From positions 57,892 through 121,891 of the forward strand of contig DASWYC010000002.1 in assembly GCA_036405175.1 (NCBI GenBank): a stretch of 64,000 nt of DNA, in the 5' to 3' direction. The notes below the pieces were generated by a model. That model saw only the letters and a program-made list of their open reading frames with translations. It was not told the origin of the DNA and did not search any database. Source of the stretch: Minisyncoccota bacterium. GTDB taxonomy: Bacteria > Patescibacteriota > Minisyncoccia > Phycocordibacterales > UBA1006. Of this stretch, positions 16,727-33,558 are shown piece after piece. The position numbers and the translations under genes are program-made. The stretch's first letter is position 1. Each line of letters starts with the position of its first letter.

Positions 16727-18442
16727 ATGAAACTCCTCGCGCAGATTAAACAATCAATTGAGTCGTATCTCCTCAAAACACATGGTATTGCGGAAGATGC
16801 TCAGCTAATTTTATCTGATCTTAATCACGCTGATTTTCAATATAACGGTGCGCTCAAATTTGCAAAACAGCTTGGTGTTGCGCCACTAAAAATTGCAGAA
16901 GAAATTGTTGAACAACTTACGCAGTATGTTCAAGATGTTGAGATTAAAGCCGTGGCTCCAGGATATGTTAATTTTATCTACACACAATCATATATTGAAG
17001 ACGCACTTGCGCCGCTTGTAACCGGGGATGTTAAGCCGAACATTGTAGACAAAAAACGCATCATGGTTGAGTACACTGATCCAAACACCTTTAAAGTGTT
17101 CCATATTGGGCACCTTATGACCAATGCTATTGGAGAATCATTAGCGCGTTTGTTTGAATACGGTGGACACGATGTGATTCGTGCAAATTATCAGGGAGAT
17201 GTTGGACGTCATATTGCTCAGGCAATTTATGGAGTACTCAATGGTGATATTCAGCGCCCTGCAGATGATGCTCCGCTTAAAGAAAAAACAGAATATCTTG
17301 GAAAGTGTTATGTCTATGGTGCTCAGCAATTTGAAGCGTCAGATGATGCAAAAGCAAAAATCAGAGAAATCAACGCTCATATTTATAACAATGATAACGA
17401 AGAAATTAACGCATGGAATCAAAAAGGGCGCAATTGGTCACTGGAGCGTTTTGAAGAACTCTATAAAATTCTTAATACAAAATTTAATTACTACTTTTTT
17501 GAATCTCAAACCGCACCAATCGGACTAGAGAAGGTAAAAGCAAATATTCCAAGCGTATTTGTTGAATCTGACGGGGCAATCGTATTTAAGGGTGAAGAAT
17601 ATGGATTGCATACGCGTGTATTCATTAACAAAGAAGGCCTGCCAACCTATGAAGCAAAAGATGTTGGACTTGCGTATCTTAAGCATGAAAAAGAACCAAA
17701 GCTTAATATTTCAATTACCGTAACCGCCAATGAACAGGCTGAATACTTTAAGGTAATGAAGAAAGCTGTTGAATGTATTGATCTAAAAATTGCATCACCA
17801 ATGATGCATGTGTACCACGGAATGATGAGCGGGCCGGGTGGTAAAAAAATGTCATCACGTAAAGGTGATGTTGTTACCGGTGAAAGCTTGATTGAGGACG
17901 CAATGGAGCGCGCACGCGAGGTAATTGAAGAACACTATAAAGATAAAAAAACTGCCGCAGAAAAGGATGCTATTGCAGAAGCGGTTGCAGTTGCTGCTAT
18001 TAAATTCACCATTCTTAAACAGGACAGTTCAAAAAATATTATGTTTGATCTTGAAAAGGCACTTTCTTTTGAAGGAGATAGTGGACCATATTTGCTCTAT
18101 ACCAATGCACGGTTGTGTTCAATCATTCGTAAATCATCAGGATTGATGAATGTTCTTGGGCGAATGTTTAGTGCTAAAAAATCTGACCCAGTGGGCGAGC
18201 TTGAACGAGTATTGATGCAATTTCCAATTGTTGCTGAGCGCGCTGTTGAAGCAATGGAATCACATCGCATCACTACCTATGCACTTGAACTTTCACGAGC
18301 AATTAATAGTTGGTATGGATCACATAAAGTTATTGGGTCAGGGGAGTACGAAGCGTATCGTTTACGTGTGGTGCAGGCTGCACAGCAAACGCTTAAAACA
18401 TGCATTGAACTTTTGGGGATGAAAGCGGTTGAGGAGATGTAG
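16727..18442 (+). CDS. argS: arginine--tRNA ligase
   Basis: HIGH-type motif FHIGHLMTN, C-terminal DALR anticodon-binding region. Start moved to MKLLAQIKQ (16727), downstream of the rplK terminator. Confidence 0.9.
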   Translation: MKLLAQIKQSIESYLLKTHGIAEDAQLILSDLNHADFQYNGALKFAKQLGVAPLKIAEEIVEQLTQYVQDVEIKAVAPGYVNFIYTQSYIEDALAPLVTGDVKPNIVDKKRIMVEYTDPNTFKVFHIGHLMTNAIGESLARLFEYGGHDVIRANYQGDVGRHIAQAIYGVLNGDIQRPADDAPLKEKTEYLGKCYVYGAQQFEASDDAKAKIREINAHIYNNDNEEINAWNQKGRNWSLERFEELYKILNTKFNYYFFESQTAPIGLEKVKANIPSVFVESDGAIVFKGEEYGLHTRVFINKEGLPTYEAKDVGLAYLKHEKEPKLNISITVTANEQAEYFKVMKKAVECIDLKIASPMMHVYHGMMSGPGGKKMSSRKGDVVTGESLIEDAMERAREVIEEHYKDKKTAAEKDAIAEAVAVAAIKFTILKQDSSKNIMFDLEKALSFEGDSGPYLLYTNARLCSIIRKSSGLMNVLGRMFSAKKSDPVGELERVLMQFPIVAERAVEAMESHRITTYALELSRAINSWYGSHKVIGSGEYEAYRLRVVQAAQQTLKTCIELLGMKAVEEM

Positions 18443-18958: not shown

Positions 18959-19420
18959 ATGCACATTATTTCTATGCTACTTCCATGGGTTTCAGGTATT
19001 TTAATTTGTATTGGACTTATTATTGCATGGCAAAGGAGTAAAAAGAGAAATCGTTCTTTAAATATAACCTATTATGTATTTTTAGGTATTTCAGTACTTG
19101 CCCTGATCGTAATAGACCGATTTTTTAGAGGTATGCTTATAAGTCTGTTTAGTAATACTGTTCATCCAGGCTACTTCGTAGCTGAAATCATTATTATGAT
19201 TGTATTATTAATAATAAGATTTATTCCTAAAAAAGGAAATTTAAATTTTATTGTAAATCATCTCTTGTATATATTTGCTATTCCAGTTATTCTCGGCACG
19301 ATTGATTTGGTGAATGCGGTTCGTCATCCTGACTGTATGGGTTGCCCAATTTACATTAATGATGATCCCACCAGAGAATTCAATGCCATAGAAGGATTGA
19401 GACATGTGCCTTTGCCCTAA
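18959..19420 (+). CDS. small 4-TM membrane protein ending HPDCMGC...VPLP; tandem paralog 2
   Basis: See paralog 1. Confidence 0.5.
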   Translation: MHIISMLLPWVSGILICIGLIIAWQRSKKRNRSLNITYYVFLGISVLALIVIDRFFRGMLISLFSNTVHPGYFVAEIIIMIVLLIIRFIPKKGNLNFIVNHLLYIFAIPVILGTIDLVNAVRHPDCMGCPIYINDDPTREFNAIEGLRHVPLP

Positions 19421-19435
19421 TAAAAGAAAATAAAA

Positions 19436-19467
19436 AACAGTAGAATGATTTCATTCTACTGTTTTTG
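19436..19467. terminator. hairpin terminator (AACAGTAGAATGA / TCATTCTACTGTT + T-tract)
   Basis: Perfect 13-bp inverted repeat. Confidence 0.65.
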
Positions 19468-19484
19468 TAATTGAGCAAAAAACT

Positions 19485-19835
19485 TTAATTTAAATACTTA
19501 TATTCGAATTGTCTTCGATATTCAAGATAAGAACAGATTAGTGTGGTTAAACCAAGAGTAATACTAAGCCAAAAGGCTTCTTTGAAGAGGGTGTATGAAA
19601 ACCAAACCAAACAAAATCCCCCTATAAGTAAAATACAGTGGATAAAACTTTTTGCGTTAGCGGTCAAGAATGACAGTACTATTGCTGCACTAATTCCTCC
19701 AAAAAAACTGAAAACTGTACCCAAAGGGATTCTTGTCTCTTTGATTGCAAATGAGACGGTGGCGAGTCCTACAATTAAGACAATGTAATAGAAATTAATC
19801 CAAAATAAACTTTTACGTTTTTCCATGTTGTTCAA
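19485..19835 (-). CDS. hypothetical 4-TM membrane protein
   Basis: 116-aa hydrophobic ORF. Confidence 0.4.
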   Translation of the reverse strand: MNNMEKRKSLFWINFYYIVLIVGLATVSFAIKETRIPLGTVFSFFGGISAAIVLSFLTANAKSFIHCILLIGGFCLVWFSYTLFKEAFWLSITLGLTTLICSYLEYRRQFEYKYLN

Positions 19836-19926: not shown

Positions 19927-22900
19927 ATGAAACAGCCTGACCTGAGCAAGTATTTTGAAGGATTTGAAAAATCTAAGCGTTCGCACGATGAGGAAAATAT
20001 CCTCAATTTTTGGCAAGAAAATCAAATCTTTGAACAATCACTTAAAAAACCATCACCAAAAGGAGAGTATGTTTTTTATGAAGGTCCTCCAACGGCAAAC
20101 GGCCGTCCAGGAATTCACCACTTTTTAGCACGCTCATTTAAAGATGCAATTCCTCGCTATAAAACAATGCAAGGATATCATGTAGCGCGTAAGGCTGGTT
20201 GGGATACACACGGTCTTCCTGTTGAACTTCAGGTAGAAAAAGCGCTTGGGTTGGCTAATAAAAAAGAAATTGAACAATACGGTGTAGAAAAGTTTAATGA
20301 AGCGTGTAAAGAATCAGTGTGGCAGTATCAGTCTGAGTGGGAAGCTATGACCGCCCGCATGGGGTATTGGATTGATATGGAAAATCCATATATCACCTAT
20401 GAGACTCCATATATTGAATCAGTATGGAATATCCTTAAGACAGTTGATGACAAGCAGCTTCTCTTTAAGGATTACAAAATTATTCCATGGTGTCCTCGTT
20501 GTGGAACGGGACTTTCTTCTCATGAGCTTTCACAGGGTTATGAAGATGTAAAAGATATCTCAGTAACAGCAGCATTTAAAGTGACGGGCTCAATTGTTAA
20601 TCTTCCAGAAAATACTTCTATTCTTGCATGGACAACAACACCGTGGACGCTCTTTGGAAACGTTGCGCTTGCCGTAGGAAATACTATTAATTATGTTCTC
20701 GTTCAAGATAGTTCACGTGACAATGCACACTTTATTATCGCTGAAGATCGTTTAAGTTTTGCATATCCTGATCAATCAATAATTAAGGTTATTGGAACGT
20801 ATACAGGAAGTGAATTGGTTGGCACAAAGTATCAACCATTGTTTCCATATGCTGCAGAGTTTATTCAATCACAAACAACTCCTGAACAATTTTCAAAAGC
20901 ATACACGGTATACGATGCAGATTTTGTAACAACCAGTGACGGAACGGGTGTTGTCCACACTGCAGTAATGTATGGAGCTGACGATTTTGATCTTGGTACA
21001 AAATTAGGATTGCCAAAAGTTCATATGGTAAACCAAGACGGAACGTACAAAGAGGGTCTTAAAGATTTTACCGGACGATTTGTTAAAGACGAGCAGGTGA
21101 CCATTGATATTCTCAAAGAACTCACTGTATATAATTCTCTTTTTTCAAAACTCAAGTACGAACACTCATATCCTCACTGTTGGCGCTGTAAAACGCCGGT
21201 GCTGTATTACGCGCGTGACTCATGGTTTATTAGAATGTCTCAACTTGCAGACACGTTGCAGCAAGAAAATGAAAAGATTAATTGGAATCCAAGCCACATC
21301 AAAGAGGGGCGTTTTGGAGAATGGCTCCGTGGTCTTAAAGACTGGGGATTGTCTCGCGAACGGTATTGGGGAACACCACTTCCAATTTGGGAATCAGAAG
21401 AGGGTGGACGGATTACGGTGGGTTCACTTGAAGAGTTAAAAACATATTCAACAAAACCAACCGTTGATCTTATTTTGATTCGTCACGGGTTTGCAACTCA
21501 TTTGCGTGACGGAATCTTTGCCGGTGATCGTGCAAACGATACCGCAACACTTACTGAAGAAGGAATTAAACAGGTACAAGAGCTTGCAAATACGTGTGGC
21601 GATACTATTAAATCTGCTGACGTGATTTTTGTTAGTCCATTTAAGCGTACGCAGGAAACCATTACAATCTTGCAGGATGCGCTTGGTCTTACTCAAGAAG
21701 TTATTGTTGATGATCGTTTAGTTGAAATGAATTTTGGAGCATTTAATGGTAAGAAAAACTCAGAACGCGATGGCTACTTTGATAATGATCAGTACACTAA
21801 AGCAAATCCAGAAGGTGAATCACTCTTTGACGTGCAAAAACGCGTAACGGCGTTCTTGAAAGATGTTGAATCTCAATATGCTGGTAAAAAAGTGATCGTA
21901 ATTAGTCACGATGATACGCTCAGTTTGCTATGTTCTGTTGCACGTGGAATTGTTGATAAAGTTCCTCAGATTCAATATTTTAATCCTGCAGAGTGTCGTA
22001 CCGTAACTTCAACAAATTTGCCAGTAAGCCATGACGGGTTTGTGGATCTCCATAAGCCATATATTGATAATATTGTGCTCAAAAAAAATGAGCGTATATA
22101 TACACGCGTACCAGAAGTGATTGATGTGTGGTTTGATTCTGGGTCAATGCCATTTGCACAACAGCATGCACCATTTGCTGGGGAGCTTACCAGTGCTCAA
22201 TATCCAGCAGATTACATAACCGAAGGTCTTGATCAAACCCGCGGATGGTTTTATACCTTGCTTGCTATTGGATGTTTGATGGGTAAAGGTTCACCATATA
22301 AGAATGTAATTTGCTTAGGACTTTTGCTTGATGACAAGGGGCAGAAAATGTCTAAATCAAAGGGGAACATTGTGTCGCCATGGAAGGTCATGTCTGGCGT
22401 TGGATCAGATGTTGCCCGCATGTGGTTGTATAGCGTGAACCAGCCAGGAGAATCAAAGAGTTTTGACATGGCAATGTTGCAGGATCTTGAGCGTAAATTG
22501 TTTGTGATCTTTGAAAACTGTTTAGAATTTTATAAGCTTTCACCCGATGTTCAAACATCATACAATGCTGATCTTCTTAAGAATGCATCATACTTGGATA
22601 AATGGTTAATAGCATACATGAATACTGTTAAGAAAATGGTGACCGAATCACTTGATGCATACGATCTTTTCACCGCAACTCGCACCATCCGCGATTGTGT
22701 GACCGAATTGTCTCAATGGTATGTGCGTCGTTCGCGTGAAGCACTTAAAGAAGAAGGGGTAGTTGGGGATGCAACGCGTCATACCTACCGCAATGCACTC
22801 CGCGATATTGCCATAATGTTGGCACCGTTTACCCCATTCCACGCAGAAAAATTCTTCCAAGACGTGAAGTTTGAAAATGACCCAGCGTCAGTACATCTTG

Positions 22901-23406
22901 CTGATTGGGTAATATTTAATACTGATAGTTCATCAGATATCTTGAATGAAATGGATCAGACACGCACTGTGATCTCGGAAATTCTTAAGAAGCGTGACGA
23001 GGTAAAAATTAAAGTACGCCAACCGCTCGCTTCAGTGACACTTAATCGCTCATTTAACATTGAACTTCAAGAACTTATTAAAGATGAGGTAAATGTAAAG
23101 GAAATAAAGGTTGATGAAAATGCGTTTGAAACAACACTTGATACAAATCTCACCCAAGAACTTATTGAGGAAGGAATTGCTCGTGAAATCACGCGTGCTA
23201 TTCAATCAATGCGTAAGAATAATAATCTTTCACCAGATGATGCGTTTACGGTTACACTCCAAGATTCAGAACTCGTGCAAAAGATCCTGGATACCTATGG
23301 TGATGATATCTCAAAGAAAACAAAAACTACTCTTGCAACCGCCGCATCGATTACTGATTCAGAAAAAATTACCACTAATCTTGGCGATATTCTCATTCAA
23401 AAGTAA
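19927..23406 (+). CDS. ileS: isoleucine--tRNA ligase (eukaryote-like type 2) with an inserted histidine-phosphatase (PGAM-like) domain of about 190 aa
   Basis: PTANGRPGIHHF (HIGH), WDTHGLP, KMSKS (GQKMSKSKGN). The insert between ...EELKTYSTKPTVD and LHKPYIDN carries RHG, SPFKRTQET, LVEMNFGAFNG and SHDD motifs. Confidence 0.9.
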   Translation: MKQPDLSKYFEGFEKSKRSHDEENILNFWQENQIFEQSLKKPSPKGEYVFYEGPPTANGRPGIHHFLARSFKDAIPRYKTMQGYHVARKAGWDTHGLPVELQVEKALGLANKKEIEQYGVEKFNEACKESVWQYQSEWEAMTARMGYWIDMENPYITYETPYIESVWNILKTVDDKQLLFKDYKIIPWCPRCGTGLSSHELSQGYEDVKDISVTAAFKVTGSIVNLPENTSILAWTTTPWTLFGNVALAVGNTINYVLVQDSSRDNAHFIIAEDRLSFAYPDQSIIKVIGTYTGSELVGTKYQPLFPYAAEFIQSQTTPEQFSKAYTVYDADFVTTSDGTGVVHTAVMYGADDFDLGTKLGLPKVHMVNQDGTYKEGLKDFTGRFVKDEQVTIDILKELTVYNSLFSKLKYEHSYPHCWRCKTPVLYYARDSWFIRMSQLADTLQQENEKINWNPSHIKEGRFGEWLRGLKDWGLSRERYWGTPLPIWESEEGGRITVGSLEELKTYSTKPTVDLILIRHGFATHLRDGIFAGDRANDTATLTEEGIKQVQELANTCGDTIKSADVIFVSPFKRTQETITILQDALGLTQEVIVDDRLVEMNFGAFNGKKNSERDGYFDNDQYTKANPEGESLFDVQKRVTAFLKDVESQYAGKKVIVISHDDTLSLLCSVARGIVDKVPQIQYFNPAECRTVTSTNLPVSHDGFVDLHKPYIDNIVLKKNERIYTRVPEVIDVWFDSGSMPFAQQHAPFAGELTSAQYPADYITEGLDQTRGWFYTLLAIGCLMGKGSPYKNVICLGLLLDDKGQKMSKSKGNIVSPWKVMSGVGSDVARMWLYSVNQPGESKSFDMAMLQDLERKLFVIFENCLEFYKLSPDVQTSYNADLLKNASYLDKWLIAYMNTVKKMVTESLDAYDLFTATRTIRDCVTELSQWYVRRSREALKEEGVVGDATRHTYRNALRDIAIMLAPFTPFHAEKFFQDVKFENDPASVHLADWVIFNTDSSSDILNEMDQTRTVISEILKKRDEVKIKVRQPLASVTLNRSFNIELQELIKDEVNVKEIKVDENAFETTLDTNLTQELIEEGIAREITRAIQSMRKNNNLSPDDAFTVTLQDSELVQKILDTYGDDISKKTKTTLATAASITDSEKITTNLGDILIQK

Positions 23407-23433: not shown

Positions 23434-24006
23434 ATGAGTCATGAGTTTTCTCATAAAAAAGCCATTGTATTTGGGTATAGAAATTATGGAGAAAAAGATC
23501 GCTATTACAATTTATTGATAGAAGATGATGGGCTCCGGTATGTGCGTGTTCAAGGGGTGCGTGATGTAAAGTCAAAACATCGTAATCTACTTGGACTCTT
23601 TGCATGTCCCACTATTACCTATATTCACGGACGGGAATACCGCCTGATTGGAATTCAAGAAGATGAATATCTGGCAACAACAGAAGAATTGGTATTTGCA
23701 TTTAGCTTTATTGCTAATATAACTCGTGTTGTTGAATTTGATGAAGCTGAACACAAAGGTCTCTATCATCTGATTCGTGAAATTCATGACGAGATTAGCC
23801 AGCATCCAGCTGTCCCTCGTACAAAGCTGCTGGTCTATATTGCTAGCACAATTCTTAACTTTATTGGATATGGGGACGAAAAACACGAGCACATGCCGCT
23901 TGAACAGGTTATACTTACCTATGAGACCATTCATACGAAAGTCCGTGCTATGGTGTATGAACATCGCGAGCTCAGCTTTTTGAATGAATATCTTGATATT
24001 GTATGA
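23434..24006 (+). CDS. RecO-like protein (N-terminal OB-fold domain; no zinc-finger seen)
   Basis: Weak resemblance to the RecO N-terminal domain and helical region; 190 aa. Overlaps the next gene by ATGA. Confidence 0.35.
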   Translation: MSHEFSHKKAIVFGYRNYGEKDRYYNLLIEDDGLRYVRVQGVRDVKSKHRNLLGLFACPTITYIHGREYRLIGIQEDEYLATTEELVFAFSFIANITRVVEFDEAEHKGLYHLIREIHDEISQHPAVPRTKLLVYIASTILNFIGYGDEKHEHMPLEQVILTYETIHTKVRAMVYEHRELSFLNEYLDIV

Positions 24007-32858: not shown

Positions 32859-32918
32859 TACACTAACTTCTAAGTCCACTGAAAAATCCCACCATTTCTG
32901 GTCGGATTTTTCTTCTTG

Positions 32919-32989
32919 TTGCGGAGGTCCGAATCGAACGGACATCCCAGGGTTATGAGCCCCGTGAGTTACCTTTACTCCACTCCGCG
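32919..32989 (-). tRNA. initiator tRNA-fMet (anticodon CAT)
   Basis: Hand-folded cloverleaf. C1·A72 mismatch, A11:U24, three consecutive G:C pairs at 29-31:39-41, T-loop TTCGATT. No CCA encoded. Confidence 0.8.
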
Positions 32990-33443: not shown

Positions 33444-33484
33444 CAAATATCCCAGATCACCTAGGTGACCTGGGATATTTCTTG
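33444..33484. terminator. long hairpin (AAATATCCCAGATCACC / GGTGACCTGGGATATTT), bidirectional terminator for the DUF305 gene and the minus-strand tRNA
   Basis: 17-bp stem with one mismatch; T-runs on both sides. Confidence 0.6.
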
Positions 33485-33558
33485 TGTCAGAGGGCGGACT
33501 TGAACCGCCGACCTGAGGTTTATGAATCCTCCGCTCTAACCAGCTGAGCTACACTGAC
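33485..33558 (-). tRNA. elongator tRNA with CAT anticodon (tRNA-Met or lysidine-type tRNA-Ile2)
   Basis: Hand-folded. D-arm GCTCAGCTGGTTAGAGC, anticodon loop TTCATAA, T-arm GGCGGTTCAAGTCCGCC (Ile2-like in E. coli), C11:G24. Confidence 0.75.

What the first reader, a model, noticed from the sequence alone, without database searches (positions are those of the whole stretch)
21460..22040. Histidine-phosphatase (PGAM-like) domain inserted in-frame into isoleucyl-tRNA synthetase
The ileS ORF (19927..23406) is 1159 aa, roughly 100-200 aa longer than typical IleS. By my from-memory alignment to type-2 IleS (for example Thermus), the short linker ...ELK..ATKP...DPHRPYVD holds about 190 extra residues here.

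The insert carries all four catalytic elements of the histidine phosphatase superfamily branch 1, in the right order and spacing:
- RHG (LILIRHGFATH)
- SPL.R..QTA-like SPFKRTQETI (second Arg)
- L.E..FG..NG (LVEMNFGAFNG, catalytic Glu)
- C-terminal SHDD (second His)

So a probably active phosphatase is embedded in a surface loop of the aminoacylation core. I am not aware of such an aaRS architecture. It could be an editing or moonlighting activity, for example on a phosphorylated nucleotide or signalling metabolite, or it could be a selfish domain insertion.
Basis: partly seen in the sequence, partly recalled or inferred. Interest (0 to 1): 0.85.

Follow-up and report, generated by a model that had tools for sequence, protein, structure and literature searches.

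The report
Phosphatase domain nested inside IleRS
The isoleucyl-tRNA synthetase of this candidate-phyla-radiation bacterium carries a complete, apparently active histidine phosphatase inside its catalytic core; relatives encode the same phosphatase as a separate gene just upstream of ileS, so it looks like an undescribed accessory enzyme of the synthetase, with unknown substrate.

Summary
ORF 19927..23406 (1159 aa) is a type-2 IleRS. Residues 512-702 (21460-22032) are a complete branch-1 histidine phosphatase domain (Pfam His_Phos_1, E=1.7e-29), placed where a solved IleRS2 has about 3 residues, in the CP3 subdomain.

It is not an assembly artefact and not unique. The identical protein was assembled from at least three sequencing runs. 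The 120 best homologues (47-51% identical, plus one at 84% and the identical database entry) all share the architecture. At least 105 of 120 matching GTDB genome loci, mostly Patescibacteria, carry it.

The catalytic Arg-His, Arg and His are 100% conserved and the Glu 97%.

The main new result is where the insert came from. The same phosphatase family exists as a free-standing gene of about 190 aa. In 52 of 59 informative metagenome loci that gene lies immediately upstream of an insert-less ileS, in an argS-phosphatase-ileS-recO operon. The family also occurs as tandem pairs, at a second IleRS site, inside ValRS (2-4 copies) and next to tyrS.

So the insert is the fused form of an IleRS partner enzyme. 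Its substrate is unknown. Nine literature searches found no description. The window's own copy is atypical: the phosphate-pocket Asn is replaced by Leu.

The parts
19927..23406 (+). ileS: type-2 isoleucyl-tRNA synthetase with a nested phosphatase, 1159 aa
   Evidence: ORF. TIGR00392 scores 853 bits against a cut-off of 621. The full-length AF2 model has pLDDT 91.4 and pTM 0.85. Its IleRS body superposes on 1ile with TM 0.91 normalised to the target.
20110..20121 (+). HIGH signature motif (G62-I-H-H65)
   Evidence: Sequence and coordinates. H64 and H65 are invariant in the 119-sequence alignment.
20632..20649 (+). CP1 editing-domain threonine-rich peptide TTTPWT (residues 236-241)
   Evidence: Sequence. 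Residues W235-L242 are invariant in the family. The role of this peptide in editing is from established knowledge of IleRS, not tested here.
21361..21372 (+). RYWG motif (residues 479-482) of the CP2-CP3 linker, which marks the start of CP3
   Evidence: Sequence. In yeast IleRS the CP2-3 linker ...SRNRYWG lines the reveromycin A / tRNA binding pocket and CP3 follows it (PMC7955072). The CP3 definition is also given in PMC7191050.
21460..22032 (+). Histidine phosphatase (His_Phos_1, branch 1) domain nested in CP3, residues 512-702
   Evidence: Pfam E=1.7e-29 in the full protein and 6.4e-31 for the excised region. The boundaries come from the alignment to 8c8w. The insert-only AF2 model has pLDDT 94.2 and pTM 0.91. 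Foldseek matches to CobC, PspA, PhoE, GpgP, TIGAR and 9mmh have TM of about 0.66-0.76.
21481..21489 (+). R519-H520-G521: phosphate-pocket Arg and nucleophilic His
   Evidence: Aligns to the RHA/RHG motif of PspA, dPGM and 9mmh. R and H are 100% conserved and G is 97% conserved in 120 homologues. Coordinates.
21502..21504 (+). Leu526, at the position of the phosphate-pocket Asn (RHGxxxxN); atypical in this copy
   Evidence: This position is Asn in 93% of the family and Leu here. Coordinates. Free-standing members have N, Q or K at this position.
21646..21648 (+). R574: second phosphate-pocket Arg (SPFKRTQET)
   Evidence: 100% conserved. Aligns to the SPLKRT motif of PspA.
21724..21726 (+). E600: proton-donor Glu (VEMNFG)
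   Evidence: 97% conserved. It is Asp in some members of the representative set. Aligns to the IEIDHG motif of PspA.
21907..21909 (+). H661: second catalytic His (ISHDD)
   Evidence: 100% conserved. Aligns to the VVSH motif of PspA.
22033..22110 (+). CP3 resumes (..DGFVDLHKPYIDNIVLKKNERIYTR..). The Zn-knuckle cysteines found in other IleRS2 are absent here.
   Evidence: Alignments. Only about 15% of the family keep Cys at the knuckle positions. T. thermophilus CP3 carries a zinc motif (PMC7191050).
22345..22359 (+). KMSKS signature motif (residues 807-811)
   Evidence: Sequence. K807-S811 are invariant.
16727..18442 (+). argS (arginyl-tRNA synthetase), upstream member of the conserved argS-(phosphatase)-ileS-recO gene order
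   Evidence: Pfam families on the identical contigs. BLASTP to the ArgRS of L126 and L132 gives E=2e-68.
23434..24006 (+). Short RecO-like gene (190 aa, RecO_N only), downstream member of the conserved gene order
   Evidence: Pfam RecO_N E=2.9e-6, 27.7 bits against a cut-off of 27. recO follows ileS in L126, L128, L133 and many metagenome loci.

Best explanation
The segment is a complete, folded and very probably catalytically competent branch-1 histidine phosphatase. It is compact (about 190 aa) and of the PhoE/CobC/PspA type. It is nested in the CP3 subdomain of what appears to be the housekeeping type-2 IleRS of a Paceibacterota (Patescibacteria/CPR) bacterium.

It is the fused form of an IleRS partner enzyme. 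In related lineages the same phosphatase family is a separate gene, separated from an insert-less ileS by a few nucleotides or overlapping it, directly upstream in an argS-phosphatase-ileS-recO operon. In the clade that includes this window it has been moved into the CP3 loop. In other lineages it is duplicated in tandem, inserted at a second IleRS site, or inserted into ValRS.

Shown here:
- domain identity
- insertion point
- intact IleRS motifs
- invariant catalytic residues
- clade-wide distribution
- the operon/fusion relationship

Inferred chemistry: His520 attacks a terminal phosphoryl group held by R519, R574 and H661. E600 protonates the leaving group, and the phospho-histidine is then hydrolysed.

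Inferred role: the substrate is something tied to the IleRS reaction. My leading guess, at only about 0.3, is a nucleotide-type phosphomonoester, most specifically a blocking 2'/3'-phosphate on the 3'-terminal nucleotide of tRNA(Ile) that must be removed before charging. Hydrolysis of a small phosphorylated product or by-product such as PPi or a nucleotide comes next, at a similar 0.3.

The confidence given below applies to the core statement (active accessory phosphatase of operon origin), not to the substrate.
For: Domain and site:
- Pfam and NCBIfam hits.
- Alignment to 8c8w places 193 aa in a gap of about 3 residues.
- CP3 assignment from PMC7191050 and PMC7955072.

Fold:
- Full model pLDDT 91.4, pTM 0.85, insert blocks mostly 91-97 (range 81-97).
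- Insert model pLDDT 94.2, with Foldseek hits to small histidine phosphatases.
- The IleRS body superposes on 1ile at TM 0.91.

Not an artefact:
- The identical protein lies on 4 contigs; 3 places from 3 runs are shown. The identical database entry P0005 (sources NCBI and Logan, NCBI MAG name) has a longest contig of 668 kb.

Selection:
- R519, H520, R574 and H661 are 100% conserved and E600 97% across 120 homologues, most only about 50% identical.
- Insert pairwise identity is 42%, against 73% for the Rossmann core and 43% for the C-terminal domain.
- Apart from truncated fragments and two single substitutions, every copy in every architecture keeps R-H..R..E/D..H.

Distribution:
- All 120 best hits carry PF00300.
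- 530 cluster representatives score E<=1e-30.

Partner relationship:
- A free-standing phosphatase lies directly upstream of ileS in L126, L127, L128/129 and L133/134.
- Measured spacers are 1-10 nt in L126-L128, with a 10-nt overlap in L133/134.
- Of 80 metagenome loci, 14 are fused. Of the 59 informative free-standing loci, 52 have ileS immediately downstream. argS lies upstream in 45 of 66.
- Free-standing and inserted domains are as similar to each other (33%) as within each class (34-36%).

Recurrence:
- Tandem CP3 pairs, a second IleRS site, and ValRS with 2-4 copies.
- A two-domain phosphatase upstream of tyrS.
Against: - No enzymatic data exist, so activity and substrate are inferred.
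- The window's own copy deviates at 5 of 22 insert positions that are >=90% conserved in the family: N513V, Y515L, N526L, I656V and H700V. One of these is the phosphate-pocket Asn, so this particular copy could be less active than typical members.
- Seven of 59 informative free-standing genes have unrelated neighbours, so linkage to ileS is not obligatory.
- Multiple copies and several insertion sites argue against a single precise geometric coupling to the synthetic site.
- All the closest characterised relatives are small-molecule metabolic phosphatases. No histidine phosphatase acting on tRNA ends turned up in the literature search.
- I could not test whether this genome has a second, insert-less ileS.
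Confidence: 0.8

Rival explanations
1. Hitch-hiking metabolic enzyme. The domain is an ordinary small-molecule phosphatase or mutase, for example phosphoserine or sugar-phosphate phosphatase, phosphoglycerate mutase or an alpha-ribazole-type phosphatase. Its chemistry has nothing to do with aminoacylation. It sits next to or inside ileS only because that guarantees constitutive co-expression in a tiny genome with few promoters.
For: - The closest sequence and structure relatives are metabolic phosphatases: CobC, PspA, archaeal dPGM, PhoE, GpgP, TIGAR and the riboflavin-pathway HFP 9mmh.
- 7 of 59 free-standing genes lie in unrelated contexts.
- Multi-copy arrays and several insertion sites fit a dosage role better than precise coupling.
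Against: - Every characterised subfamily model scores far below its cut-off: CobC 77 against 163, archaeal dPGM 74 against 225, PspA 58 against 350, SixA 36 against 74.5, pgm_1 38 against 82.
- The partner is very specific: ileS in 52 of 59 loci, then ValRS, tyrS and proS, with no other fusion partner among the top 150 representatives.
- Moving an upstream gene into an internal loop is not a simple read-through fusion. Internal insertion has happened at three or more sites in two synthetases.
- The junction residues are strongly conserved (P699 97%, H700 92%, N701 87%), which suggests a fixed docking.
Confidence: 0.2
2. Protective protein phosphatase. The domain removes inhibitory phosphorylation from the synthetase itself, for example phosphorylation placed by HipA-type toxin kinases, which are known from the literature to target class I synthetases such as GltX and TrpS. 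That knowledge is from memory and was not checked here.
For: - The superfamily includes protein phosphatases (PGAM5, Sts-1, SixA; established knowledge).
- Its N-terminal half gives a weak SixA match of 36 bits.
- Association with several class I synthetases: IleRS, ValRS, TyrRS.
Against: - No kinase partner was seen in any of the contexts examined.
- The SixA score is below its cut-off of 74.5 bits.
- Nothing points to IleRS as a kinase target.
- Multi-copy arrays are not explained.
Confidence: 0.08
3. Non-catalytic module. The phosphatase fold is kept as a phosphate-binding or structural domain, for example an extra tRNA-backbone or 5'-phosphate clamp, or a replacement for the lost CP3 zinc knuckle, without turnover.
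For: - Most family members have lost the CP3 zinc-knuckle cysteines.
- The window copy lacks the pocket Asn.
- The junctions are rigid and conserved, and the full model has high pTM.
Against: - The nucleophile His and both Arg are invariant, and the acid Glu/Asp is kept in about 250 domains across all architectures, including free-standing proteins that have no IleRS to scaffold.
- Pseudo-enzymes usually lose the nucleophile in at least some lineages.
Confidence: 0.06
4. Selfish or mobile insertion (intein-like or transposed cassette), or an assembly or frameshift chimera.
For: - The family consensus ends in ..PLPHN, which superficially resembles an intein C-terminal His-Asn.
- The domain occurs at several sites and in several copy numbers.
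Against: - Pfam matched no other family to the excised insert at E<=0.01, so there is no Hint or endonuclease signal.
- The residue after HN is not Cys, Ser or Thr, and there is no N-terminal splice-site Cys or Ser.
- No flanking direct repeats.
- GC is 0.394 against 0.402 for the rest of the gene.
- The identical protein comes from independent assemblies, and over 100 divergent orthologues have the insert at the same column.
Confidence: 0.02

Closest known systems
Small branch-1 histidine phosphatases: PhoE (1h2e), CobC alpha-ribazole phosphatase (6e4b, 6nru), PspA phosphoserine phosphatase (4ij5), GpgP Rv2419c (4pza), riboflavin-pathway HFP (9mmh)
   Same: Same fold and size of about 190-210 aa. 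Same catalytic set: RHG His nucleophile, second Arg, Glu, second His. Foldseek TM is about 0.66-0.76.
   Different: - At most 29% identity.
- Every subfamily HMM scores far below its cut-off.
- Family-specific N-x-Y before the RHG strand.
- Encoded inside or directly next to a synthetase gene rather than in a metabolic operon.
- This copy lacks the pocket Asn.
Type-2 (eukaryote-like, mupirocin-resistant) bacterial IleRS, e.g. Priestia megaterium IleRS2 (8c8w) and Thermus thermophilus IleRS (1ile)
   Same: The ileS equivalog score is above its cut-off. HIGH, KMSKS, the CP1 editing peptide, the anticodon-binding domain and the DUF5915 C-terminal domain are all present. The body superposes on 1ile at TM 0.91.
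   Different: A 191-residue catalytic domain sits at the tip of CP3, and the CP3 zinc-knuckle cysteines are lost.
IleRS with an embedded N-acetyltransferase domain (NCBIfam NF040702, ileS_w_GNAT)
   Same: A precedent, in a curated model, for an IleRS that carries an extra catalytic domain.
   Different: A different domain (GNAT, not a histidine phosphatase). The window protein scores 305 bits against a cut-off of 1999, so it is not a member. I did not examine where the GNAT domain is inserted.
Bifunctional RNase H / acid phosphatase (Rv2228c type, NCBIfam NF005567)
   Same: The best NCBIfam match for the insert (84.6 bits, to the CobC-like C-terminal half). It is a precedent for a His_Phos_1 domain fused to a nucleic-acid enzyme.
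   Different: That is a terminal fusion, not a nested insertion, and the partner is RNase H. The score is well below the cut-off of 326.
HD phosphohydrolase domain of bacterial CCA-adding enzyme (2',3'-cyclic phosphodiesterase / phosphatase for tRNA 3'-end repair; from memory, not checked here)
   Same: Conceptual analogue for the leading substrate guess: a phosphohydrolase attached to an enzyme that works on the tRNA 3' end. One family member (P0077) carries an HD domain in addition to the phosphatase.
   Different: An unrelated fold and mechanism. No evidence here that the insert touches tRNA.

Membership tests
Histidine phosphatase superfamily, branch 1 (Pfam PF00300) | Profile HMM match above the curated threshold | tested here: met
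   103.3 bits in the full protein and 108 bits for the excised region, against a cut-off of 21.7.
Histidine phosphatase superfamily, branch 1 (Pfam PF00300) | RHG motif with the nucleophilic His, second Arg, Glu proton donor and second His, in that order | tested here: met
   R519-H520-G521, R574, E600 and H661 align to the catalytic residues of PspA, dPGM and 9mmh. They are 97-100% conserved in 120 homologues.
Histidine phosphatase superfamily, branch 1 (Pfam PF00300) | Phosphate-pocket Asn, five residues after the RHG Gly (RHGxxxxN) | tested here: not met
   Leu526 in the window protein. The position is Asn in 93% of the fused family and N, Q or K in free-standing members. This residue is auxiliary rather than superfamily-defining, but it lowers confidence in full activity of this copy.
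Histidine phosphatase superfamily, branch 1 (Pfam PF00300) | Alpha/beta PGAM-like fold | tested here: met
   AF2 insert model pLDDT 94.2. 275 PDB matches at E<=0.001; the 50 best listed are all histidine phosphatases or mutases.
Histidine phosphatase superfamily, branch 1 (Pfam PF00300) | Phosphatase or mutase activity through a phospho-histidine intermediate | not testable with these tools
   Needs biochemistry.
Cofactor-dependent phosphoglycerate mutase (dPGM) | Equivalog or subfamily HMM above the curated cut-off | tested here: not met
   TIGR01258 scores 37.8 against 81.7. NF038349 (archaeal dPGM) scores 73.8 against 225. The other gpmA models score <=47 bits against cut-offs of 261-421.
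CobC alpha-ribazole phosphatase / PspA phosphoserine phosphatase / SixA phosphohistidine phosphatase | Equivalog HMM above the curated cut-off | tested here: not met
   TIGR03162 scores 77.2 against 162.9. NF045917 scores 57.6 against 350. TIGR00249 scores 36 against 74.5.
Isoleucyl-tRNA synthetase (type 2) | ileS equivalog HMM above cut-off; HIGH and KMSKS motifs; CP1 editing domain; anticodon-binding domain | tested here: met
   TIGR00392 scores 853 bits against 621. GIHH at residues 62-65, KMSKS at 807-811 and TTTPWT at 236-241. Anticodon_1 and DUF5915 are present. The best PDB matches are IleRS2.
Isoleucyl-tRNA synthetase (type 2) | Being the only (housekeeping) IleRS of the genome | not tested
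   Only 64 kb of a contig of about 668 kb is available. No second ileS or second phosphatase copy lies in the window. The housekeeping gene order argS-ileS-recO is suggestive.
Mupirocin-resistance IleRS MupA/MupB; ileS_w_GNAT | Exception-model HMM above cut-off | tested here: not met
   MupB scores 742 and MupA 703 against 1900. ileS_w_GNAT scores 305 against 1999.
Intein / mobile insertion | Hint-domain blocks, N-terminal Cys/Ser, C-terminal His-Asn followed by Cys/Ser/Thr, homing endonuclease or flanking repeats | tested here: not met
   Only His_Phos_1 matches the insert at E<=0.01. The family HN is followed by E/D/L and others, and the window has V-S-H-D there. No direct repeats.

The most novel reading that the evidence does not exclude
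The phosphatase is a third catalytic activity of the synthetase, alongside aminoacylation and editing. It acts on a substrate delivered by IleRS itself. The most striking version is that it removes a blocking 2'/3'-phosphate or pyrophosphate from the 3' end of tRNA(Ile), left by nuclease or toxin damage, so that repair and charging are coupled. An alternative version is that it hydrolyses PPi or a nucleotide by-product at the enzyme to drive charging in an energy-poor symbiont. That would define a new class of accessory activity in class I synthetases, used in trans (operon partner) or in cis (CP3 insert) across a large part of the Patescibacteria.
Probability: 0.3. Interest if true: 0.88.

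Novelty: new variant of a known kind. Interest (0 to 1): 0.7.

Why it matters
Aminoacyl-tRNA synthetases are among the most intensively studied enzymes. Their known accessory activities are editing domains, tRNA-binding appendages and, in eukaryotes, signalling domains.

Here an apparently active phosphatase is wired to IleRS in hundreds of species-level lineages. It appears as a closely spaced or overlapping upstream gene, or nested in CP3, sometimes in two to four copies, and also in ValRS. That implies an unrecognised requirement of the charging reaction, or of tRNA(Ile)/tRNA(Val) maintenance, in CPR bacteria, which are ultra-small episymbionts with minimal metabolism.

The question is directly testable, because both the excised domain and the free-standing orthologues can be expressed.

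It also has practical value for annotation. NCBI currently names these proteins 'class I tRNA ligase family protein', and the neighbouring free-standing genes carry generic 'phosphoglycerate mutase' or 'PhoE' labels.

Tried and rejected
1. A word-indexed homologue search with the insert alone returned only 4 hits. This was a sensitivity artefact, not rarity. The full-length search and the exhaustive HMM search showed hundreds.

2. The search for related loci on genome contigs with the 25-sequence insert alignment failed, because no stretch was conserved enough. I replaced it with a junction-specific degenerate DNA pattern.

3. I hoped to measure the distance and orientation between the phosphatase pocket and the aminoacylation and editing sites. 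Model coordinates are not exposed, so no geometry could be computed. The IleRS structure papers I read give no CP3-tRNA contact.

4. Nine literature searches found no description. They combined IleRS, aaRS, tRNA synthetase, histidine phosphatase, His_Phos_1, phosphoglycerate mutase, phosphatase domain, CPR, Patescibacteria, Parcubacteria and cyclic phosphate. One further search was rejected for syntax.

5. PPi hypothesis: I looked for evidence that Parcubacteria lack inorganic pyrophosphatase. The papers found were uninformative.

6. Intein or mobile-element reading: rejected.

7. Assembly chimera: rejected.

8. Membership of dPGM, CobC, PspA or SixA: rejected on curated cut-offs.

9. A disproportionately relaxed insert in the window lineage: not supported. 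The ratio of insert to core identity is 0.33/0.58 for the window and 0.42/0.69 for the rest of the family, which is similar. This lineage has nevertheless lost several family-conserved insert positions.


Full report
**1. Observation**

The ORF 19927..23406 (+) encodes 1159 aa. Pfam finds four domains:
- tRNA-synt_1, E=5e-117
- His_Phos_1 (PF00300) at residues 515-675, E=1.7e-29, 103 bits against a cut-off of 21.7
- Anticodon_1
- DUF5915

NCBIfam's ileS equivalog TIGR00392 scores 853 bits against a cut-off of 621.

Against the solved Priestia megaterium IleRS2 (8c8w, 1032 aa), residues 20-509 align to chain residues 12-479 and residues 703-1065 align to 483-852. About 193 residues therefore occupy a position where the reference has about three.

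The finding's coordinates (21460-22040) correspond to residues 512-704. I place the insert at 512-702, i.e. 21460-22032.

They align residue for residue with the catalytic residues of PspA, dPGM and a recently solved histidine-family phosphatase:
- R519-H520-G521
- R574
- E600
- H661

Base composition of the insert (GC 0.394) matches the rest of the gene (0.402). No repeats flank it.

**2. Not an artefact, and not unique**

The identical 1159-aa protein is on record on four contigs. The three places shown come from three separate sequencing runs. The identical database entry P0005 is held by both NCBI and Logan, is named 'MAG TPA: class I tRNA ligase family protein [Candidatus Paceibacterota bacterium]', and has a longest contig of 668 kb.

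A full-length search returned 8000 IleRS-like proteins. All 120 best hits carry PF00300 together with the IleRS domains. One is the identical database entry, one is 84% identical, and the rest are 47-51% identical. They are 1111-1297 aa long and, where named, come from Paceibacterota, Vogelbacteria, Pacebacteria, Minisyncoccia and 'Patescibacteria group'.

In a MAFFT alignment the insert lies at the same columns in all of them.

I then scanned the GTDB species genomes with a junction-specific degenerate DNA pattern. It encodes P-H-N at the end of the insert, five free codons, then D-L-H-x-P-x-I-D of CP3. tblastn confirmed the insert in 105 of the 120 loci. Several of the rest have the match at the locus edge.

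An exhaustive HMM search of 1.84 billion cluster representatives with a 25-sequence insert profile found 530 representatives at E<=1e-30.

My first insert-only word search returned four hits. That reflected the limits of the index, not rarity.

**3. Where the insert sits**

The insert follows the RYWG motif (residues 479-482). In yeast IleRS this motif belongs to the CP2-CP3 linker that lines the tRNA/reveromycin pocket, and CP3 comes next (PMC7955072).

CP3 is a small, structurally variable subdomain that connects CP2 to the second half of the Rossmann fold. It binds zinc in T. thermophilus (PMC7191050).

Insert-less relatives have CxxC...CxxC with a short loop at exactly this point. Only about 15% of the fused family keep those cysteines, and the window protein has none.

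AlphaFold2 with the 119-sequence alignment gives pLDDT 91.4 and pTM 0.85. The 10-residue blocks over the insert are mostly 91-97, with two lower blocks of 87 and 81. The IleRS body superposes on T. thermophilus IleRS with TM 0.91 normalised to the target, so the synthetase fold is intact around the insert.

The insert modelled alone (pLDDT 94.2) is a compact histidine phosphatase. Its nearest solved structures are CobC, PspA, PhoE, GpgP, TIGAR and the riboflavin-pathway phosphatase 9mmh, with TM about 0.66-0.76 and identity <=29%.

I could not measure how the phosphatase pocket faces the synthetic or editing site.

**4. Selection**

Across the 120 homologues, conservation of key insert positions is:

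| Position | Conservation |
|---|---|
| R519, H520, R574, H661, S570, G546 | 100% |
| G521, E600 | 97% |

Pairwise identity among family members:

| Region | Identity |
|---|---|
| Insert | 42% |
| Rossmann core | 73% |
| CP1 | 67% |
| C-terminal domain | 43% |

The insert therefore evolves like a peripheral but constrained domain.

The window lineage (with P0006, 84% identical) is the most divergent member. It has lost five of the 22 insert positions that are >=90% conserved: N513V, Y515L, N526L, I656V and H700V. N526 is the phosphate-pocket Asn of the RHGxxxxN motif. The catalytic tetrad is intact, but this copy may be less active than typical ones.

**5. The key context: a partner enzyme**

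The top 150 representatives of the exhaustive search fall into several classes:

- (a) IleRS with a single CP3 insert. This is the majority, including many fragments.
- (b) IleRS with a tandem pair in CP3 (for example P0184, 1468 aa).
- (c) IleRS with a CP3 insert plus a second copy about 165 residues downstream, between the catalytic and anticodon-binding domains (P0177 at 871-1061; also P0171, P0190, P0221).
- (d) ValRS with inserts. P0235 (1538 aa) scores 849 bits on the valS equivalog against a cut-off of 704 and has domains at 439-637 and 912-1114. P0125 is a ValRS N-terminal fragment with four copies.
- (e) Complete free-standing proteins of 188-213 aa with Met starts.
- (f) Two-domain proteins with no synthetase part (P0203, P0241, P0257); of these only P0257 was checked in its gene context.

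Apart from truncated fragments and two single substitutions, every copy in every class keeps R-H..R..E/D..H. Free-standing and inserted domains are as similar to each other (33%) as within each class (34-36%), so they form one family.

Gene context of the free-standing forms:

| Locus | Arrangement |
|---|---|
| L126 | argS ... phosphatase (195 aa) - 7 nt - ileS (955 aa, no insert) ... recO |
| L128/L129 | argS - phosphatase - 1 nt - ileS (984 aa) - recO |
| L127 | phosphatase - 10 nt - ileS N-terminus |
| L133/L134 | argS - phosphatase - ileS (938 aa, 10-nt overlap) - recO |
| L132 | argS - phosphatase, then a convergent ileS |
| L130/L131 | two-domain phosphatase plus a third fragment, upstream of an archaeal-type tyrS |
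| L135 | divergent from proS |

To put numbers on this I fetched 80 metagenome loci related to the free-standing form. The tally:
- 14 are fused IleRS, 10 of them with argS upstream.
- 66 are free-standing, and 59 of those have downstream sequence.
- 52 of the 59 (88%) have ileS immediately downstream on the same strand. Six of these have two phosphatase genes in tandem.
- argS lies upstream in 45 of the 66.
- The seven exceptions have unrelated neighbours.

The window has the same gene order with the phosphatase moved inside: argS (16727-18442), two small ORFs, ileS::phosphatase, then a RecO_N-only gene.

The insert-less IleRSs that pair with the free phosphatase are only 34-40% identical to the fused family. 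The partnership therefore spans deep IleRS lineages.

**6. How it most likely works**

Shown:
- an intact IleRS with HIGH, KMSKS and the editing peptide
- an intact histidine-phosphatase fold and catalytic set
- long-term purifying selection
- a Rosetta-stone relationship with IleRS (operon neighbour or nested domain), with recurrence in ValRS

Inferred chemistry: His520 attacks a terminal phosphoryl group bound by R519, R574 and H661. E600 acts as the acid, and the phospho-histidine is hydrolysed.

Inferred biology: the substrate is tied to the IleRS reaction. My estimates for the substrate class are:

| Candidate | Estimate |
|---|---|
| Nucleotide-type phosphomonoester presented by tRNA (blocking 2'/3'-phosphate or pyrophosphate on the 3' end) | about 0.3 |
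| Small phosphorylated product or by-product (PPi, nucleotide) | about 0.3 |
| Unrelated metabolic phosphatase that is merely co-expressed | about 0.2 |
| Protein phosphatase protecting the synthetase | about 0.08 |
| Non-catalytic module | about 0.06 |

For coupling: the very specific partner, repeated internal insertions rather than end-to-end fusions, and conserved junction residues (P699 97%, H700 92%, N701 87%).

Against precise coupling: multiple copies, several sites, a working free-standing form, and 12% unlinked genes.

No literature precedent for a histidine phosphatase acting on tRNA ends was found.

**7. Comparison with known families**

The insert is a member of the histidine phosphatase superfamily, branch 1. 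It is not a member of any characterised subfamily. The dPGM, CobC, PspA and SixA models all score far below their curated cut-offs.

The host is a bona fide type-2 IleRS. It does not reach the MupA, MupB or ileS_w_GNAT exception models. The ileS_w_GNAT model shows that IleRS with an extra catalytic domain is a known kind of thing.

Nine literature searches found nothing on IleRS or ValRS with a histidine phosphatase. The architecture is visible only as automatic Pfam annotation and generic names such as 'class I tRNA ligase family protein'.

**8. Verdict**

The feature is real, ancient, widespread in Patescibacteria and, as far as the searchable literature shows, undescribed. It is best described as a new variant of a known kind (a synthetase with an accessory catalytic domain).

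It comes with an unexpected evolutionary story (operon partner, then nested domain, with multi-copy and ValRS versions) and an open, testable functional question.

Interest 0.7. It is still high, because a third, conserved catalytic domain linked to IleRS would surprise specialists.

Noticed in passing
P0235 (locus L125:703-5319) and P0125: Valyl-tRNA synthetases carrying the same phosphatase family. P0235 (1538 aa, valS equivalog 849 bits) has two copies, at 439-637 and 912-1114. P0125 is a ValRS N-terminal fragment with four copies in a row. A PemK-family toxin gene lies just upstream of the ValRS in L125.
   Followed up: partly
P0177, P0171, P0190, P0221 (representative proteins): IleRS variants of 1379-1419 aa with a second phosphatase copy at a different site, between the catalytic/stem-contact region and the anticodon-binding domain (P0177 residues 871-1061). 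This is in addition to the CP3 copy. Both copies keep the catalytic residues.
   Followed up: partly
P0077 (1297 aa): One fused IleRS also carries an HD phosphohydrolase domain (PF01966, residues 1102-1196), directly after the segment (1047-1087) that matches the C-terminal DUF5915 model. That makes two different phosphohydrolase domains in one synthetase.
   Followed up: no
L132:2682-5609 (-): The IleRS next to the free-standing phosphatase P0228 is on the opposite strand. It is called as two genes, a C-terminal half of 554 aa matching ileS profile positions 420-855 and an upstream 412-aa piece that was not scanned, separated by 24 nt. It is either a split IleRS or a frameshift or assembly error.
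   Followed up: no
L161, L162, L177, L180, L181, L213; L130/L131: Some genomes have two free-standing phosphatase genes in tandem upstream of ileS. L130/L131 have a two-domain phosphatase (410 aa) plus a 109-aa fragment upstream of an archaeal-type tyrS.
   Followed up: partly
window 21457-22110 (residues 511-728): The window lineage (with P0006) has lost the CP3 zinc-knuckle cysteines and several family-conserved insert and junction residues (N513V, Y515L, N526L, H700V, N701S). It is the most divergent member of the fused family, although its catalytic tetrad is intact.
   Followed up: partly
window 23434-24006 (+): The gene after ileS is a short RecO-like protein (190 aa) that matches only RecO_N, at 27.7 bits against a cut-off of 27. 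In related operons RecO is 241-246 aa with both RecO_N and RecO_C.
   Followed up: no
window 18959-19835: Between argS and ileS, where relatives have the free-standing phosphatase gene, the window has two small hydrophobic ORFs: 153 aa on + (no Pfam match) and 116 aa on - (not scanned). Gene callers on the identical contigs called a 148-aa and an 81-aa gene there.
   Followed up: no
window 32918-32989 and 33484-33558 (-): Two tRNA genes with a CAT anticodon lie about 500 bp apart. One could be tRNA-Ile2 (lysidine-dependent AUA decoder), which would be the IleRS substrate most dependent on modification. I did not distinguish initiator, elongator and Ile2.
   Followed up: no
P0008; L013 and the many loci titled 'uncultured Candidatus Saccharibacteria': A few fused IleRS come from records labelled Flavobacteriaceae or Spirochaetia, and many from MAGs labelled Saccharibacteria by the submitter. 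These labels may reflect mis-binning or generic naming rather than true distribution outside the Paceibacteria-type lineages.
   Followed up: no
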